Shown piece by piece: positions 8,581-38,184 of a stretch of DNA of 64,000 bases. A program made the position numbers and the translations under genes. The stretch covers positions 11,780,001 to 11,844,000 of the forward strand of contig JBHGNT010000010.1 of NCBI GenBank assembly GCA_043228905.1, written 5' to 3'. The DNA is from Azolla caroliniana (taxonomy: Eukaryota; Plantae; Polypodiophyta). The notes beneath the pieces were generated by a model that saw nothing but the letters and a program-made list of their open reading frames with translations, did no database searches and was not told the DNA's origin. How positions within the stretch are numbered: the first letter of the stretch is position 1; every line of letters begins with the position of its first letter.

Positions 8581-8808
8581 ATCTCAAAGAATTACAATGA
8601 CTTGTTCTCAGATAATGACGAGCTAGAAAACGCCATGTCTAGGCTTCCTTGTGTGGCTCCCCCCATATTCTTACGGGGGTAACACATGGCATGCCTATGG
8701 ATAGGAACACACCACCAGCTGCCGAGAAAGGCGAATCCAACATCCATTATTTCGTTTTCCAACAGCCCGGACATTATGCCACTCAATGTCATGAACACAT
8801 GACCATTA

Positions 8809-8881
8809 TGGCGTCACCCGGACTTGAACCTCGAACCTTGTAATTCATACTTGAAAACCTCAACCATTAAGATAGCTTATT
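8809..8881 (-). other. tRNA-shaped Pol III A-box/B-box module in LTR U3 (also 13245-13317 on -, and 34987-35059 on +)
   Basis: The minus strand reads TATCTTAATGG-33 nt-GGTTCAAGTCC-GGGTGACGCCA, which matches tRNA positions 8-73. The acceptor stem does not pair. Confidence 0.55.
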
Positions 8882-8944
8882 GTTATATGAAACAATAAAA
8901 GCTACTTCTTGTATTACATTGATTATTGTAAAAACTCTAGATTA

Positions 8945-9041
8945 TTCTAGAATGTTCTAGAATGTCCTAGAGCATTCTAGGTCTAGAACATTCTAGAACA
9001 TTCTAGAAATCTCTAAGCTATTCTATAGGAACCTATAAATA
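8945..9041 (+). promoter_or_regulatory. Heat-shock-element array and TATA box in the chromovirus LTR (repeated at 13381-13477)
   Basis: TTCtaGAAtgTTCtaGAA (8945-8962), GAAcaTTCtaGAAcaTTCtaGAA (8986-9008) and TATAAATA (9034-9041). Confidence 0.7.
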
Positions 9042-9828
9042 AGCGCATACATGTATTCTCAAATCAATTCGAATCAAACTGTTAGAACCAAGGATAAAAG
9101 ATAGAGTGATGGAAGAAGGATAGAGAAGAATGGATGTATAAGATAGAGAAAGAAAGAGAATGGATACAAGATATGTAATGAGAGCTACGTGTATGGTTGC
9201 TTCGTCGTCACATCAAGACTACCCGACCATGTGCTAAGCTTGACTATCAACGCTTAGGTCCTTTTGTCATCACGGCGCAGATTAATGATGCAACATTTCG
9301 TCTTAACCTTCTTGCACATATGCGGCTTCACCCTGTCTTTCATAGCTCTCTTTTGGAACCTTGCCACACCTCTTTAATTCCTGATCGTGTCGTGCCACCA
9401 CCGCCTTCTGTACAACTTGTGGACGGCCCCGAATACGAGGTAGCTGCTATTCTCGATTCTAAGATTGTGCGCAATAAGCTTTATTATCTAGTTGATTGGC
9501 TTGGTTATCCTCCGAGTGATCGCACTTGGGAACCCATCGATAACGTTTGTAATGCTGAAGCTCTGGTCAACGACTTCCATCGTCACTATCCAAACAAGCC
9601 CGGCCCAACAATGTTAACGCCAACTTCCACTCGGCGTTCTCGAACCAGGGATAGTGTCATGAACACATGACCATTATGGCGTCACCCAGACTTGAAGTTG
9701 ACAACTGGGTGTTCTAACTTGTACTAGGGCTGAGAAAACTCTACTAACATGCTTGGAAGAAATGGAACCCACACTAGGTTGTACATATCTAGGGTTGTCC
9801 AACCAAATGGCTCCTATTTTGGCCGGAC

Positions 9829-10992
9829 TTATTCGTTTGACTCCTCTTCTAATTGGCTTAGGACTTCAAATTTATTGGACAAGGGTGGATTATTCATAAT
9901 ATTAGATTCACTAACTACTTCTAAAATGTTGGACTCATTTTTATTGTCATAGTGAATTTGATTTACCTGACGTCTCGGCCTACGGGAGCAATGAATGGCT
10001 ATATGTCCTGGACCTCCACAATATAAGCACAAATGGTTTGCTCGACGACGTTGCTTCTCTTCTTCTGACAACGGTCCTCGTCGTTGAGTCATATCGATCT
10101 CCATGGGTGTAGGACTATCCATTGGGACTGGACTACGTGTTTGCCTTGGAGTTGGAGCAGGGCTATACATTTGCCTTGGGGATGATTGCGCCGTTACTGA
10201 TGCAGAAGTTGGTGTGAATCTAGATCTTGTTATTTGTTGTTGTCGCTCACATCGACGCTCAAAAAGGTGATTATCACACCATATTGCTCGACTAATAGCT
10301 TTTGTAAGTGACCTTGGATCCTCGGGGAAGGTAAGAAGTAAGTCTTTGACATCACTACGAAGGCCTGAACGGAATTGCTCCATTAGGGCTTGTTCATCCC
10401 AAGGAATATCGCTTGCGATGAGGCGGAAATTGGCAGCATATGTTGAAGCTGGTTGATCACCTTGACGAAGTGTACGAATCTTGTTGATAGTTGTTCTCGC
10501 CCCATCAGTATCTCCGAAACAAGCCTTAAATTCCTTGATAAATTCCTCGAAATTATTCAGTAGAGGAGAATTGGTCTCTAGCAATGGAGCAAACCACGAC
10601 AACGCTATGCCAGTCAATAAAGTGCCCACTAGCCCGACTCGTGATGCATCTGTTGGATAACGTGCGGGATGCATTTGAATCACCAACCGTACTTGATTCA
10701 AAAAACCTCGGAAATGCGCCCTCGACCCATCAAATTTAGCTGGGAGGCTAATTTTGGGCTCCTTGATAAGTCCCTGACCTTCAACCCTTTGTTGTTGTAA
10801 CACGACGATTATCGACTCTAACTGTTGCACTCGTCGCGTGAACTCCTCTTGTTGTTGTTGCTTCTCTATAGTAACCTTTTGTAGATCCCCAAGTAGACGT
10901 TGATTCTCTACTTCAAGAGATGCGAACTTGGATTTAAGGTTCTCCATTTCCGCAACAAGGGTGAGATATTCTTCTGAGTTAATGGCAGCCAT
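9829..10992 (-). CDS. Intact chromovirus Gag (387 aa, capsid plus CCHC knuckle), inverted relative to its element
   Basis: Open ORF from MAAINSEE containing EPKISLPAKFDGSR, LRQG, TPMEID and CLYCGGPGHIAIHC. Confidence 0.85.
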   Translation of the reverse strand: MAAINSEEYLTLVAEMENLKSKFASLEVENQRLLGDLQKVTIEKQQQQEEFTRRVQQLESIIVVLQQQRVEGQGLIKEPKISLPAKFDGSRAHFRGFLNQVRLVIQMHPARYPTDASRVGLVGTLLTGIALSWFAPLLETNSPLLNNFEEFIKEFKACFGDTDGARTTINKIRTLRQGDQPASTYAANFRLIASDIPWDEQALMEQFRSGLRSDVKDLLLTFPEDPRSLTKAISRAIWCDNHLFERRCERQQQITRSRFTPTSASVTAQSSPRQMYSPAPTPRQTRSPVPMDSPTPMEIDMTQRRGPLSEEEKQRRRANHLCLYCGGPGHIAIHCSRRPRRQVNQIHYDNKNESNILEVVSESNIMNNPPLSNKFEVLSQLEEESNE

Positions 10993-11049
10993 GGTTTCAG
11001 GATGGTTACAAAGGAGGATAAGAGAGAGAGGATGGTTACATAGCAACAA

Positions 11050-12374
11050 TTGCGCCAAGTGGGAGGCAAGGAGGACCTTTTCTTATTTGCAGTATCAGTG
11101 ACACCTTCTAGTGTCACTCAAGGGAATTCAGACATCCAAATTCCCAAAAAATATCAAGACTATGCTGATGTTTTCGACAAAGTCAAAGCTAGTGTTCTTC
11201 CAAAGCATCGGCCGTACGACTGTCCTATTGATCTCCAACCAGGAAAAGAGCCTCCGTGGGGTCCGATTTACAATTTATCACCCACTGAGCTTGAGGTTCT
11301 TCGAGAATACATCGAGGAAAATCTTGCACATGGTTATTCGACATTCAAAGTCTCCAGCTGGTGCTCCTATCTTTTTTGTGAAGAAAAAGGACGGCTCCTT
11401 TCGTTTGGTCGTGGACTATCGAGGCTTAAATAAAGTCACCATAAGGAATACGTATGCTTTACCTTTAATCTCCAATCTCTTAGAACGCATTGGTGGGGCA
11501 AAGAATTTTACCAAAATTGATCTAAGGGGTGCATATAATCTTGTTCGAATTCGGCCGGGAGATGAGTGGAAAACAGCATTTCGTACTCGGTATGGTCATT
11601 TCGAGTATCCAGTCATGCCTTTCGGGCTCACAAATGCACCTGCCGTATTCCAACATATGGCAAATGACATCTTCCGGGATTTCTTGGATATTTTTCTAAT
11701 CATCTACCTAGATGATCTATTGATTTACTCTAAAACACAGGGGGAGCATGATATACATGTGCGGCAAGTACTTGAACGCCTAAGGAAGTATGGTCTTTAC
11801 GCCAAACTTGAGAAATGCAGTTTTGATTGCAAACAAGTCGAATTTTTGGGATACACTATTTCATCCCAGGGTGTTTTCATGGACCCGGCAAAAGTCCAAA
11901 CAATATTGGAATGGAAACCCCCATGCTCAGTTCGGGATGTCCAGTGTTTCCTCGGATTTGCGAACTTCTATCGCAAATTCATACATAATTATTCAAGCAT
12001 TGTGTTGCCCCTTACTCAACTCACCAAGAAAAATCAAGCATTTTTTTGGAGTATCGAAGCGGACAAGGCTTTTACGCAGCTGAAAGAGGCATTCACATCA
12101 GCACCCATCCTAGCACATATTGATCCTGAAAAACCATTTACTATTGAGGCGGATGCATCAGACTTTGCATTGGGGAGTATCCTATCGCAACCAGGCGAGG
12201 ACGGGTAGATACATCCAGTCGCGTTTCACTCGAGAAAGTTTACTGTTTCGGAGATAAACTATGAGGTGCATGACAAGGAGTTACTAGCTGTGGTCGACTC
12301 ATTCGAGCAATGGCGTCATTTTCTAGAAGGATCACCTCATCAGATTATCATTTATAGTGATCATAAAAATCTCT
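11050..12374 (+). pseudogene. Chromovirus reverse transcriptase and partial RNase H
   Basis: [49 protein letters not shown] and EADASDFA. Frameshift near 11335, stop at 12206-12208, and a deletion junction to the integrase after DHKNL. Confidence 0.9.
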
Positions 12375-13238
12375 TGCAAACTCTCTTCGGCTTATCATCC
12401 ACAAACTGACGGACAAACAGAGCGCACAAATCAAACGCTCGAGCAATATCTTCGATGTTTCATTAGTTATCAACAAGATGATTGGAGTAAAATTTTACAT
12501 CTTGCCGAGTTTGCATACAACAACACGGTCCACTCTTCTACCAAAGTTACACCTTTCTTTGCCTACATCGGCAACCACCCTCGATGGTGCATATTGGATC
12601 TTCCCGAGGTGTCACGAAACCCTAGTGCAGCGCATCACCTCCATCGACTACAACAAATCCAGTTCGAGTTATCGTCACATCTTCAGAAAGCGCAAGCACA
12701 CCATAAGACCAATGTCGATCGACATCGTCTTAAGTCTCCGTTTAAGGTTGGTGACCGTGTATGGTTGCTTCGTCGTCACATCAAGACTACCCGACCGTGT
12801 GCTAAGCTTGACTATCAACGCTTAGGTCCTTTTGTCATCACGGCGCAGATTAATGATGCAACATTTCGTCTTAACCTTCTTGCACATATGCGGCTTCACC
12901 CTGTCTTTCATAGCTCTCTTTTGGAACCTTGCCACACCTCTTTAATTCCTGATCGTGTCGTGCCACCACCGCCTTCTGTACAACTTGTGGACGGCCCCGA
13001 ATACGAGGTAGCTGCTATTCTCGATTCTAAGATTGTGCGCAATAAGCTTTATTATCTAGTTGATTGGCTTGGTTATCCTCCGAGTGATCGCACTTGGGAA
13101 CCCATCGATAACGTTTGTAATGCTGAAGCTCTGGTCAACGACTTCCATCGTCACTATCCAAACAAGCCCGGCCCAACAATGTTAACGCCAACTTCCACTC
13201 GGCGTTCTCGAACCAGGGATAGTGTCATGAACACATGA
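12375..13238 (+). pseudogene. Integrase C-terminal half plus chromodomain (its 3' part is duplicated at 9188-9696)
   Basis: [33 protein letters not shown] and chromodomain motifs. Confidence 0.9.
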
Positions 13239-15028
13239 CCATTATGGCGTCACCCGGACTTGAACCTTGAACCTTGTAATTCATACTTGAAAACCGCAAC
13301 CATTAAGATAGCTTATTGTTATATGAAACAATAAAAGCTACTTCTTGTATTACATTGATTATTGTAAAAACTCTAGATTATTCTAGAATGTTCTAGAATG
13401 TCCTAGAGCATTCTAGGTCTAGAACATTCTAGAACATTCTAGAAATCTCTAAGCTATTCTATAGGAACCTATAAATAAGTGCATACATGTATTCTCAAAT
13501 CAATTCGAATCAACACCAGTCTTTAGCTCTCATTACATATCTTGTATCCATTCTCTTTCTTTCTCTGTCTTATACATCCATTCTTCTCTATCCTTCTTCC
13601 ATCACTCTATCTTTTATCCTTGGTTCTAACACTCAAGGGCAAAGGCCCCGCCGTCAATACAATTATGGCGGAAGTTCAGCAAGTTATGACAAGGCAGCTA
13701 ACTAAAAATGTTGATTGGACCACGCAAGATGAGATATGTAAGACAGCCCAAGCATGTGTCGAAAAAGCAAACGAAGCCAATACGGAGCGCATGCGGCAGG
13801 AGTCCGCAAACAATGTGGGGCCATTAGAGGAAGACATAATATCCCTAGATCCCATATGGCAAGCACTGGCACACTGCGAAATAACACTAACCATGGAGAA
13901 ACTACTTCAATTAGTTCCACGGTTCCGTCAAGCCATCGAGGATCGCATAACGGGTAGACCTGAGGGCAGCGTCTTCGCCAATTTTATGGACGTTAGCAAC
14001 GGACGAACGGTGGTGGATGACCACAATCCAACTATTAAGTTGGTATTACACGGTCAGGAAATCACAGGATGCGTAATTGACAGGGGCTCTAGCGTCAATG
14101 TAATTAACGCAAAGACATGCGAACAATTGGGAATTTCAGAATGGGAAACTTGCCTGTTTTAGCTTCACATGGCAGATACCCACTCAGTTCGGCCTTTAGG
14201 CTTAATCTGAAAATTAGGCATCTCGGCACTAGTCCTCGCCCTCAGCGCTCCGGGAGCGTATCCAATGCTGCTTGGTAGACCTTGGCTTCGTTCGGCAAAT
14301 ATCAAACAAAGCGATTTGGAGTGGATGAAGTTTCGAAGAGCGACGGGTGAATGCAATCTGGTTTTTGCCAACATTTGTCCCTCTTTGGCGCATGCCGGTG
14401 GATGTGCGGTTTGGTGGGGTGGATGTCCTGGAGAAAACCGGCCTTAGCTGGAATCAAGGGATTAGGCGCATGAATCGGCGCTTACGCGTGAGCACACAAA
14501 CTAACACTTTGTGCATAACTAGGAATAGGCCGGCATAATGTGAATATCCTAGGTAGAATATATTAATAGTTTAGTAAATCGAAGCGGATTTCTGACCGAA
14601 GGGGCAAAGAATAAAGGAGATGTGACCAGGATGCAACGGTCCCTCCCCGACGGCCTGTAAAAAAGGAAGGGGAGAAGAGTGAGATTAATATTGAGAACGA
14701 CACGTTGTTAGACTGGGAACCGAGCTCTCTCCTCCTTTGTCATTGTTCACTGTGGGTTTTGGGTCGGTTGCCTCTGCTTCGAGGAAAGCCCAAGTGCCTC
14801 TGGTAGAGGCTCCACTATGTGCGTGCGTGGGTGTGTGATCTCTTGTGTTGGGTCTGTTCCCGGCTCGCCGGTTGTAATCTTGTCATCGGTATAATTATTC
14901 TTATTATTGGATTTAATTCTCCTATTTTTCTGTCTCTCAATGTTTTCCTGTGTGGTTCCCTTCATTGTCTGGTAGCTGCGCGTCTCTCTTCGTTCTGTAC
15001 AACTAATCAGAAGCGGGTATTCGTCGGT

Positions 15029-34979: not shown

Positions 34980-37900
34980 TATATCATATATGTTATTATA
35001 ATGGTTAAAGGTTTAACATATAGACCAAGACGTCTTGGGCTCGAATCCTTGTAAGGCCAAAATGTATGTCTTCATGATATTATCCCCCCTTTTCGATGAC
35101 GAGTTCCACGAGTCGGAAGACAAGATTTCGAACTTGGCTTATGTGGATATTTGTTGTGAAATGCAGCAACCATTTCGGAGGCATTAGCAAGATTCTCGAG
35201 AGGTTCCCATGTTCGATCATTAGGTGTATAACCTAACCAGTCAACCAAATAATACAGTTTGTTGCGAACGATCTTGGAGTCGAGAATGGTAACAACTTCA
35301 TATTCGGAGCCATCCAAAACATCGATTGGAGGTGGGGGAGATGTAAGACAGCCTGGAATAGAGCTGGTTGTGTACGGCTCCAAAAGTGAAACATGGAAGA
35401 CCGGGTGAAGATGCATATGAGGGGGAAGATCAAGGCGAAATGCCACATTATTGATCTTACCTGATATCACATATGGGCCAAAACGTTGATAATCCAATTT
35501 GTAGCAAGGTCAGGTTGTTTTAATGCGCGACCTTGTAAAAGCCATACTCGATCTCCCACTTGAAACGTAATCGATGAATAACGTCAATGATGGTCGGCAA
35601 CCTTCTTTTGAGTGTTTTGAGCATCACATAAATGGTGCAAAAGGATATCTTGAACTTCTTGGAGTCGGACAAGCCGATCTTTAGCAGTTGGGTTTGTCAG
35701 GAGTTTGGGATGTTCAAACACAGTCCAACGAGGATGGTACCCAATGTTTGCAAAAAATGGGGAATATCCAGTAGAAGAATGTTCTAAGTTGTTGTAAACA
35801 AATTCCGCCAAATGTAATAGATCAACCCAATCATCTTGTTGATAGTTGACAAAACAACGAAGATATTGTTCTACTGTTTGGTTGGTGTGCTCACTCTGCC
35901 CGTTAGTTTCTGGATGGTAGCCGGAAGAGAGTTTGCAAGAAGTATGTAAGAGTTTGAAGATGTGTCGCCAAAATTTTGAGATGAACTGGGGACCCCGATC
36001 ACTGATAATATCATCGGGAAGACCATGATGCCGAAACACCTCTCGCATGAGTAACTCGGTTGTCTCTTGGCTCGTAATGGCCTTTGTGCAAGGAAGAAAA
36101 TGTGCCATCTTGGTAAAACGATCTACTACCATGAGAATAGAGTCAAAACCCTTGGAAGGTGGTAGATCCGTAATGAAGTCCAATGAAATAGATTTTCATG
36201 GACTCTCAGGAATAGGCATTGGTTGTAATAAACCCATATGGATGATGTCGAGGTTTTTTGGATCGGCAACATGTATCACAACTATGAACATAATCCGTAA
36301 CAAAATGGCGAAGTTGTGGCCACCAATACCTTCGAGAAATTAGCGCCAAAGTCTTGTGGATGCCGAAATGTCCAGCCATTGGTGTGTCATGACATTGTTG
36401 CAAGACTTGGAGTCGAGAAGGAACATCAAGCACATATAAGAGATTTTGTCGAAAAAGTAAACCATCATGCCAATTGAACTAGTTGTAGTCTTGATGAGGA
36501 TTTTGAGATTGTGAACAAGAAGCACGATCTAGGATAATATGGTTCAGAATGTCTTGGGCGAATTCATCGGTCTCAATATGCTCCCAAATGGAGTCCAGAA
36601 GACACGAATCCCCGGGTGTGTCTATAGCATGGAATGCCATTAGTCGTAGATGGCCAGGACCCAAGAAGATTTGCTTCTGACTTTCAAATGCAGCCTCTCC
36701 TAGTTGAAGTTCCATATACGAACGCCGAGATAAAGCATCTACTTTTCCTTGTTGTGTCCCAGGGCGATATAGAATTACAAAATCAAAACGAGTTAAGAAT
36801 TGCGCCCAACGTGCTTGTTGACAACTCAAGACTCGAGCACTTTGGAAGTACGTTAGATTTTGTGATCATTATAGACAATGATTTGTTGAGACGAACCCTC
36901 TAGAAAATGACGCCATTGTTGAAAAGAATCCACAATGGCAAGAAGCTCTTTGTCGTGAATCTCATAGTTGATTTTTGCAGCTTCGAATTTCCATGAATGA
37001 AAAGCCACAGGGTGCAGGTGGCCATCATTGCTAATCTGGGATAATACACTTCCTAGTGCTAAGTCCGATGCATCAACTTCGAGTATAAAGCACTTCAATG
37101 GATCAACATGCATCAAAATTGGTGCGGATGTAAATGCTTGCTTTTATCCTTCAAATGTAGAGTTTGTATTTATACTCCACATAAATGGTTGATTCTTTTG
37201 TGTCAATTGAGTGAGGGGCAATACGATCTTTGAATAATCTTTGATGAACTTGCGATAAAAGTTTGCGAACCCCAAAAAACATTGTACATCTCGCACAGAC
37301 TGTGGTGTTTGCCAATCCAAAGTTGTTTGAACCTTTGCTGGATCCATAGAGATGCCATGTGAAGACACTATATGTACCCCAAAAATTCCACTTGACGTTG
37401 GTCGAAATTGCACTTCTCCAATTTTGCATAGAGACCATATTCACGCAACCGTTGCAATGCTTGTCGAACATGTATATCATGATCCTCTTGAGTTTTTTAC
37501 TAGATAGATATCATCCAGGTAAACTATGACGAAAATATCGAGGAAATCTCAAAAAATGTCATTTGCCATATGTTGGAAAACTGTTGGTGCATTTGTGAGA
37601 CCAAATGGTATCATTGTATACTCAAAATGACCATAGCAAGTATAGAAAGCAGTCTTCCATTCATCCCCAGGATGAATTCGAACAAGATTTGTAAGCACCT
37701 CGAAGATCTAACTTTGTCAAATACTTAGCTACATTGAGGCGTTCCAGAAGGGGGCTCTAAATCAATGGTAGAGCATATCAGTTTCGAATAGTTACTTTAT
37801 TCAATCCTCGATAATACACGACCAGACGAAGTGAACCATCTTTCTTCTTAATGCAAAATATGGGTGCACCGCCAGGAGATCTTAAATGCTAGATAAACCC

Positions 37901-38184
37901 ATTCGTCAAGTTATCATCGATATATTCCCGAAGAACCTCTAGCTCCGTGGGCGAAAGGTTATAAATTGGCCCCCATGGAGGCTCCTTTCCAAGCTGCAAA
38001 TCAATCGGGCAATCATATGATCGATGCTCTAGTAGTTTATTGGCCTTTACCTTATCAAACATATCAAAGAATTTTATATATTTCTTCGGTAGTTGGACCC
38101 CCAATTCTTGTGAGCTCGATGTGGGAGTTGCTAAAACTGCGAACACCAACATGTTTTCCTTCCGCCTTCCTCACGTAACTGATG

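What the first reader, a model, noticed from the sequence alone, without database searches (positions are those of the whole stretch)
8787..13631. Young chromovirus scrambled between intact ends: LTR-driven antisense gag, an inverted LTR tip and a duplicated chromodomain block
Seen, in order: LTR 5' part (8787-9077, +); LTR 3' tip inverted (9080-9187, the reverse complement of 13524-13631); a copy of the integrase tail, chromodomain, PPT and LTR start (9188-9696, matching 12756-13264 with ~2 mismatches); complete gag plus the protease N-terminus inverted (9697-~11050); RT and partial RNase H (+); a deletion; the integrase C-half; and the full 3' LTR. The PBS, protease core and integrase N-half are gone. 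The gag/RT junction sits on the palindrome CAATTG (11047-11052). Known: rearranged TE copies such as maize Mu killer silence their family in trans. Inference: multiple template switches or autointegration-like events made a copy that still integrated, or it was shattered and repaired in place. Its promoter would yield antisense gag RNA plus a 108-bp fold-back duplex, making it a candidate family-silencing locus.
Basis: partly seen in the sequence, partly recalled or inferred. Interest (0 to 1): 0.72.

Follow-up and report, generated by a model that had tools for sequence, protein, structure and literature searches.

The report
Self-priming retrotransposon's recurrent LTR flip
This scrambled jumping gene is one of about 30 copies of its family whose left end is flipped at the same 12-base spot, the spot that likely lets the element start copying itself without a tRNA, so it is likely a repeated copying error of that shortcut rather than a one-off silencing gene.

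Summary
The anatomy is real: a young chromovirus with a 5-bp target duplication and five internal junctions. It is not a one-off. Intact siblings carry, after the 5' LTR, a 12-base reverse complement of LTR bases 280-291, the Tf1-type self-priming layout. The first junction switches strands exactly there. That junction occurs 28 times in the genome, nearly always with a different second junction and, where both ends were found, usually with a target duplication. Predicted equivalents occur in two other families with different primer sequences (20 and 4 hits). One copy is a bare 616-bp LTR palindrome with a perfect target duplication. In-place flips of the loop were not found in this family, nor flips at a longer inverted repeat in the same LTR (0 against 286 normal). 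Best reading: the plus-strand strong-stop DNA folds its PBS end onto the self-primer sequence and is extended backwards; the product still integrates and its middle is patched by microhomology joins. The CAATTG junction claim is wrong, and the silencer role is untested. No paper found and no earlier scan note describes this.

The parts
8782..8786 (.). Left copy of the 5-bp target-site duplication (CTCAA)
8787..9077 (+). 5' LTR bases 1-291: U3 with TG end, TATA box at 9034, and the first 12 bases of the predicted R region
   Evidence: 3 mismatches to the 3' LTR
8945..9008 (+). Palindromic U3 repeat with five overlapping three-unit heat-shock-element-like motifs (motif definition recalled); its 21-bp inverted repeat served as control
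9066..9077 (+). Junction 1 core: 12-base predicted self-primer, the reverse complement of the PBS of intact siblings; the strand switch lies here
9078..9187 (-). Inverted piece: the two bases between LTR and PBS, then U5 and R back to LTR base 302
   Evidence: shares a rare U5-end variant with this copy's own 3' LTR
9188..9696 (+). Duplicate of integrase tail (SH3-like, chromodomain), polypurine tract and LTR bases 1-42; blunt left join, 8-base microhomology on the right
   Evidence: shares four rare alleles with 12756-13264
9697..11030 (-). Inverted leader end, complete gag frame (10995 to 9829) and protease N-terminus lacking the catalytic motif
11031..11037 (+). Seven-base templated insert at junction 4, a copy of bases from 11001 onward, followed by a 3-base overlap with pol
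11038..12373 (+). pol: RT (frame broken near its start) and partial RNase H (stop at 12208)
12366..12373 (+). Junction 5: 8-base microhomology at a 900-nt deletion of the RNase H end and integrase N-half
12374..13222 (+). Integrase C-half, chromodomain with aromatic-cage residues, polypurine tract
13223..13631 (+). Complete 409-bp 3' LTR (TG...CA)
13632..13636 (.). Right copy of the target-site duplication (CTCAA)

Best explanation
This is a PBS-less copy of a young chromovirus whose 5' LTR switches strand at the 12-base repeat shared by the LTR and the PBS, a junction that recurs in many separately inserted copies and likely arises when the plus-strand strong-stop DNA pairs its PBS end with the predicted self-primer sequence and reverse transcriptase extends it backwards. 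Shown: the repeat, the junction, its recurrence in three families, the target duplications, and the different downstream junctions. Inferred: (1) the family primes like Tf1; (2) the plus strong-stop DNA (U3-R-U5-PBS) snaps back on itself or on another plus-sense strand, giving a finished U3 end followed by an inverted R-U5 loop; (3) the minus strand, left without its partner, restarts by microhomology further down the element, which inverts gag; (4) integrase inserts the U3 and U5 ends together; (5) the middle is joined by microhomology and short templated inserts, either by RT jumps before integration or by host end-joining after it, which I cannot separate. The copy is predicted to be unable to retrotranspose again.
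For: All 12 intact siblings have the same PBS-position motif (one with one change); in 11 of 12 its exact reverse complement lies in the LTR, 32 nt after the TATA box in the window. DNA folding gives these 12 pairs probabilities of 0.78-1.0 in three siblings. The exact junction occurs 28 times (31 with a shorter pattern) against 357 normal LTRs and 122 normal LTR-PBS joints; 5 of 39 copies picked by their RT region carry it. Second junctions differ among the 28 except L043/L044. Of 20 with both ends found, 12 have a perfect and 6 a one-mismatch target duplication. Patterns predicted for two other families, 62-71% identical in aligned stretches, gave 20 and 4 hits. L101 is a 616-bp LTR palindrome with TAGGG on both sides. 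L033, L045 and L048 keep the U5-PBS-inverted U3 strand as such. Inverted tips end near the loop base: 13 of 22 at LTR 290-310, or 13 of 30 counting the left-out copies as misses, p 4e-4. Inverted inner pieces end at or near the PBS edge in L034, L046 and the window, and at LTR base 1 in L058. Controls: reciprocal in-place flip 0; flip at a 21-bp U3 inverted repeat 0 against 286 normal. About half of Tf1 cDNA carries a single-stranded PBS at its 3' end (PMC11042837, passages).
Against: No cDNA intermediate was observed; the transcription start and primer cleavage are inferred. The three-duplex structure needed by Tf1 is not clear in the folds, which show the central duplex and a short extension. 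L102 and L054 read on from the inverted LTR into the polypurine tract and integrase like an ordinary minus strand, which RNA mis-priming explains equally well. L033 and L048 tips run past the loop (269, 184). One family-2 copy, L079, is a complete in-place flip. Two of 20 copies with both ends have no target duplication and 8 of 28 have no right end in the stretch fetched. Four of 9 inner inversions end at unremarkable places. The 509-bp duplicate in the window is not predicted by the model. All counts are exact-pattern counts of unequal stringency.
Confidence: 0.6

Rival explanations
1. Mis-priming at the RNA stage: the 3' copy of the primer sequence in the genomic RNA, or a plus strand stalled after R base 12, pairs with the PBS and primes a minus strong-stop still attached to U3.
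For: The junction reads exactly as primer plus minus strong-stop. Tips cluster where a cleaved template would end. L102 and L054 continue into the polypurine tract and integrase.
Against: L101 and L058 stop at LTR base 1 with no polypurine tract, which needs a DNA template starting at U3. No tip ends at LTR 280-289, where an uncleaved RNA would end.
Confidence: 0.17
2. The flips arose after insertion, by replication template switching or break repair at the 12-bp inverted repeat in the chromosome.
For: Microhomologies and short templated inserts (window junction 4, L039, L052) resemble polymerase-theta repair (recalled). L079 is a clean in-place flip.
Against: No reciprocal flip in family 1. 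No flip at the longer 21-bp repeat in the same LTR. L101 has two U3 ends inside one target duplication. The window's duplicate is no younger than its LTR pair (2 of 509 against 4 of 399, p 0.41, a weak test).
Confidence: 0.1
3. Whatever its origin, this locus acts as a trans-silencer of its family through antisense gag RNA or a fold-back duplex.
For: TATA box retained at 9034; 1,334 nt antisense, 97.0-98.6% identical to siblings. Aberrant Ac transposition makes silencing loci in maize (bioRxiv 2020.01.07.897926, abstract).
Against: The duplex is 108 bp with arms 4,336 nt apart and needs read-through to the end of U5. There is no long inverted duplication of gag or pol. Other copies carry similar antisense pieces.
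Confidence: 0.15
4. The structure is an assembly artefact.
For: No listed contig from other samples spans junctions 2-5, and no raw reads of the assembled individual were available.
Against: Perfect target duplication; tip and duplicate share rare alleles with this copy's own 3' end yet differ from it at 1 and 2 places. Short-read contigs cross the junction-1 core in 3 of 4 runs laid, under three organism labels, though with fewer than the tool's 31 letters on each side.
Confidence: 0.05
5. Autointegration of the U5 end into the element's own LTR.
For: The U5 end does appear joined inside the LTR.
Against: The join keeps the two bases beyond CA and the 12-base PBS match, sits at one site in 28 copies, and both outer ends are joined to host DNA.
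Confidence: 0.03

Closest known systems
Tf1/Sushi self-priming elements and the plant Tcn1 clade (PMC6317226, PMC4600332, bioRxiv 2022.12.06.519325; passages read)
   Same: PBS complementary to an LTR sequence just after the TATA box; chromodomain with aromatic cage; named RT neighbours mostly fungal and amphibian.
   Different: Those passages predict or show priming in intact elements; none describes integrated copies whose LTR flips at the primer site. Placement in Tcn1 itself was not tested on a tree.
Integrase-independent Tf1 insertion through single-stranded PBS and PPT ends (PMC11042837, passages)
   Same: A single-stranded PBS copy at a cDNA 3' end pairs with a wrong partner.
   Different: There the partner is chromosomal DNA and integrase is bypassed; here it is the element's own R sequence and 5-bp target duplications point to integrase.
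L1 twin priming and 5' inversions (recalled)
   Same: A recurrent inversion class left by a second priming event during reverse transcription.
   Different: Non-LTR element, random breakpoints, priming from target DNA; here one fixed breakpoint in an LTR element.
Mu killer and Ac killer loci (Ac: bioRxiv 2020.01.07.897926, abstract; Mu killer: listings and recall)
   Same: An aberrant product of the element's own transposition that could give antisense or double-stranded RNA.
   Different: DNA transposons with inverted duplications and measured siRNAs and silencing; here a 108-bp distant duplex and no expression data.
Parvovirus terminal-repeat flip and flop, and P nucleotides from hairpin opening (recalled)
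   Same: A loop closed by an inverted repeat reappears in inverted form after copying or opening.
   Different: Those are programmed steps; here it looks like a dead-end error.

Membership tests
Ty3/Gypsy chromovirus | gag-PR-RT-RNase H-integrase order with a chromodomain at the integrase C-terminus | tested here: met
   Pfam hits and the order of pieces in intact siblings
Ty3/Gypsy chromovirus | TG...CA LTRs, polypurine tract, 5-bp target duplication | tested here: met
Tf1/Sushi-type self-priming group (incl. Tcn1) | PBS complementary to the element's own LTR | tested here: met
   11 of 12 intact siblings exact, 1 with one change; no tRNA search was run
Tf1/Sushi-type self-priming group (incl. 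Tcn1) | Transcript starts at the primer sequence | tested here: inconclusive
   Only spacing: TATA at 9034, primer at 9066
Tf1/Sushi-type self-priming group (incl. Tcn1) | Three-duplex (pretzel) RNA structure | tested here: inconclusive
   Central 12-bp duplex and a short extension in three siblings
Tf1/Sushi-type self-priming group (incl. Tcn1) | Primer released by cleavage and used by RT | not testable with these tools
   Needs biochemistry
Tcn1 clade | Chromodomain with aromatic cage | tested here: met
   Y, W and Y align with the aromatic positions of solved chromodomains; cage positions recalled
Tcn1 clade | RT groups with Tcn1 references on a tree | not tested
   No named references; named neighbours at 55-62% are mostly fungi and amphibians, with two from a seed plant and one protist
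Tcn1 clade | Host is a moss or club-moss | not tested
   Host not determined; an unreviewed note calls this genome a fern
Killer-type trans-silencing locus (Mu killer, Ac killer) | Long inverted duplication of transcribed element sequence | tested here: not met
   Only 108-bp arms 4,336 nt apart; gag is inverted but not duplicated
Killer-type trans-silencing locus (Mu killer, Ac killer) | Transcript, siRNAs and heritable silencing in trans | not testable with these tools
   Needs stranded RNA, small RNA and genetics
Autointegration product | Processed CA end joined to an internal site (recalled) | tested here: not met
   Two bases beyond CA and the PBS match are kept

The most novel reading that the evidence does not exclude
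Self-priming has a built-in cost: the complementarity that lets the RNA prime itself also makes the plus strong-stop DNA prime itself. Integrase then inserts hairpin-derived ends in concert and the host joins the middle, so one in eight or more insertions of these families (perhaps half in family 2) are dead copies with an LTR promoter firing into antisense element sequence. This would be a genomic footprint that proves and maps self-priming in any genome, and a self-made source of silencing RNA for the whole Tf1/Sushi group.
Probability: 0.35. Interest if true: 0.8.

Novelty: new variant of a known kind. Interest (0 to 1): 0.63.

Why it matters
Self-priming in plant retrotransposons is so far a prediction from sequence (PMC6317226, passages). 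A junction that joins the primer sequence to the inverted U5 end, in dozens of separate insertions and three families, is DNA-level evidence that this pairing is used and shows where second-strand transfer fails. It gives a simple pattern search for any genome with Tf1/Sushi-type or TAR-type elements, and a class of copies that LTR finders would likely miss because the 5' LTR is cut at base 291.

Tried and rejected
CAATTG as the junction: rejected. Other copies of this exact scramble: none; only the window spans junction 4 among 40 scored hits and no other of the 28 shares junction 2. No RNA holder listed. Contigs of four other runs did not bridge junctions 2-5 in the listed rows; a hole there proves nothing. 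Run X2 showed no listed contig across junction 1. The first normal-PBS pattern for family 2 hit only its source copy and was replaced; the replacement also matches flipped copies and favours them, and L083-L085 share one second junction, so 17 flipped to 9 normal overstates independent events. L081, L091 and L055 match the junction patterns but have little or no alignable tip. Host-derived filler at the junctions, which would have pointed to repair after integration, was not seen in the 28 copies; the fillers that could be traced matched the element, and L037 carries a nested element. One search used a faulty reference and was redone. The Atlas added nothing. Three primary or review Tf1 papers were not held. 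Earlier scan notes: nothing on this junction.
Full report
1. Observation. CTCAA flanks both ends, the 3' LTR is 409 bp, and the three duplicated pairs differ at 3 of 291, 1 of 108 and 2 of 509 bases, so the insertion is young; I have no rate to date it. Against intact sibling L022 the copy lacks the PBS and part of the leader, 405 nt of the protease region and 900 nt across RNase H and integrase. The tip carries a rare U5-end variant found in this copy's 3' LTR. The duplicate shares four alleles with 12756-13264 that are seen in at most 1 of 24 siblings. All pieces therefore come from one parent.

2. Junctions. Junction 1 lies in a 12-base overlap at 9066-9077. Junction 2 (9187/9188) is blunt. 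Junction 3 has 8 bases of overlap (9689-9696). Junction 4 lies at 11030/11038 with a 7-base insert copied from 30 nt upstream; CAATTG at 11047 is native to pol. Junction 5 has 8 bases of overlap.

3. What junction 1 is. Twenty siblings were fetched by their RT region, and 12 had two full LTRs. All 12 have two bases and then the same 12-base motif after the 5' LTR (one with one change). In 11 its exact reverse complement lies in the LTR, at base 280 in 9 of them, 32 nt after the TATA box in the window. This is the layout of self-priming in Tf1 and Tj1 (PMC4600332 and bioRxiv 2022.12.06.519325, passages) and is predicted for plant Tcn1 and TAR elements (PMC6317226, passages). The window reads U3, primer sequence, the two spacer bases reversed, then U5 reversed: a switch exactly at the primer/PBS pair.

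4. It recurs. The exact 29-base junction occurs 28 times, the window included, and 31 times with a 23-base pattern; normal LTRs give 357 and normal LTR-PBS joints 122. These patterns differ in stringency. A fairer figure is 5 of the 39 other copies picked by RT region, 13%. All 28 were tiled: second junctions differ except in L043/L044. Twenty had both ends found: 12 perfect target duplications, 6 with one mismatch, 2 with none; 8 had no right end in the stretch fetched. They are separate insertions, not daughters of one scrambled parent.

5. It generalises. From intact 5' ends of two other families lying in the fetched loci I predicted their junctions before searching. Family 2 gave 20 hits and family 3 gave 4. 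The families are 62-71% identical in aligned stretches and have different primer sequences. In family 2, 6 of 20 show a perfect and 1 a one-mismatch target duplication; the rest were not resolved or did not match. In family 3, L101, L102 and L103 have perfect duplications and L104 looks like a duplicate of L103.

6. Controls. The reciprocal joint of an in-place flip was found 0 times in family 1 and once among 20 in family 2 (L079). A flip at the longer 21-bp inverted repeat in U3 was found 0 times against 286 normal copies. Short-read contigs cross the junction-1 core in X1, X4 and X14 but not in the listed rows of X2; one covers the whole 64-base stretch; none has the tool's 31 letters on each side. 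Junctions 2-5 of this locus have no read support either way.

7. Mechanism. The plus strong-stop DNA ends in a PBS copy; about half of Tf1 cDNA keeps such a single-stranded end (PMC11042837, passages). In a self-priming element that end is complementary to the molecule's own R start, and folding with DNA parameters pairs them with probability 0.78-1.0. Extension gives U3-R-U5-PBS-inverted U3. L101 is that molecule and nothing else, 616 bp inside a perfect target duplication. L033, L045 and L048 keep the same strand joined to the interior. Most copies show its complement. Tips stop near the base of the loop: 13 of 22 at LTR 290-310 in a hand-made list. That list left out L033, L048, L037, L051, L053, L055, L106 and L107 and merged L043/L044; counting the eight as misses gives 13 of 30, p 4e-4 against an even spread. 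Of 9 inverted inner pieces, 3 end at or within about 45 nt of the PBS edge (L034, L046, window), 1 at LTR base 1 (L058) and 1 runs through the LTR into the polypurine tract (L054); 4 end elsewhere. This fits a minus strand that lost its partner and restarted by microhomology. Whether the halves were joined by RT before integration or by host repair after is open: templated inserts occur (window, L039, L052) but no host filler was traced. The 509-bp duplicate is not predicted by the model and must be an extra jump or a captured fragment.

8. Silencer idea. The promoter region is retained and would read 1,334 nt of antisense gag and protease, 97.0-98.6% identical to 12 siblings (one aligned over 756 nt only). 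The fold-back is short and distant, there is no long inverted duplication as in Ac killer loci (bioRxiv 2020.01.07.897926, abstract), and L034 and L054 carry similar antisense pieces. It stays a possibility for the class, not a property shown for this locus.

9. Family. A Ty3/Gypsy chromovirus by domains, with cage residues in the chromodomain and mostly fungal and amphibian named RT neighbours. It works like a Tf1/Sushi element. Membership of Tcn1 was not tested on a tree, and the host was not determined.

10. Novelty. Ten full-text searches were run. The five aimed at this junction class returned 0, 1, 1, 5 and 4 papers; I read passages of two of them and only the listings of the rest, and saw no description of it. 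Passages of PMC2864245 (plus section 7), PMC7466625 and PMC11899658 were also read. The library lacks most subscription journals, and three Tf1 papers could not be opened, so fold-back Tf1 cDNA may be in print. No supplements were read; those of PMC6317226 list self-priming predictions and may bear on the family assignment. L1 twin priming, polymerase-theta inserts, parvovirus flip/flop, P nucleotides and the Mu killer structure are recalled. Earlier scan notes hold nothing on this.

11. Verdict. Observation confirmed with two corrections. The single locus is a dead copy; the interest lies in the class it belongs to, a recurrent, site-specific LTR flip tied to the self-priming repeat. New variant of a known kind, interest 0.63.

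Noticed in passing
L101 (G000:C2, element starting near 3115286): A 616-bp element made only of an LTR and its inverted U3, 3 mismatches over 261-nt arms, inside a perfect 5-bp target duplication: an insertion with two U3 ends.
   Followed up: yes
L072-L100 (family 2): Under one shared pattern, flipped 5' ends outnumber normal ones 17 to 9; the pattern is biased and some copies are duplicates.
   Followed up: partly
window 8945-9008: U3 holds five overlapping heat-shock-element-like motifs, suggesting heat induction (motif recalled).
   Followed up: no
L043, L044, L045 (G000:C9, 1.91-1.97 Mb): Three flipped copies in a cluster share flanks crosswise, pointing to a later local duplication or inversion.
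   Followed up: no
L054: The inverted piece runs gag-PBS-LTR-polypurine tract-integrase tail, a continuity like that of a one-LTR circle.
   Followed up: no
L048: The inverted U3 continues 19 nt into the polypurine-tract side before jumping to gag, which could mark the length of the plus-strand primer.
   Followed up: partly
window 11366-12205: Named RT neighbours are mostly amphibian and fungal. If the host is a fern, as an unreviewed note says, this would extend the group's plant range: a PCR survey found no Tcn1-like clones in ferns (PMC2864245, section 7).
   Followed up: partly
window 13632-14162: The element sits in another repeat with a gag/protease-like frame (my reading, no Pfam hit); other runs show uninterrupted copies across this site.
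   Followed up: no
window 35181-38097: A related chromovirus on the minus strand, 67-70% identical in pol; priming site not examined.
   Followed up: no
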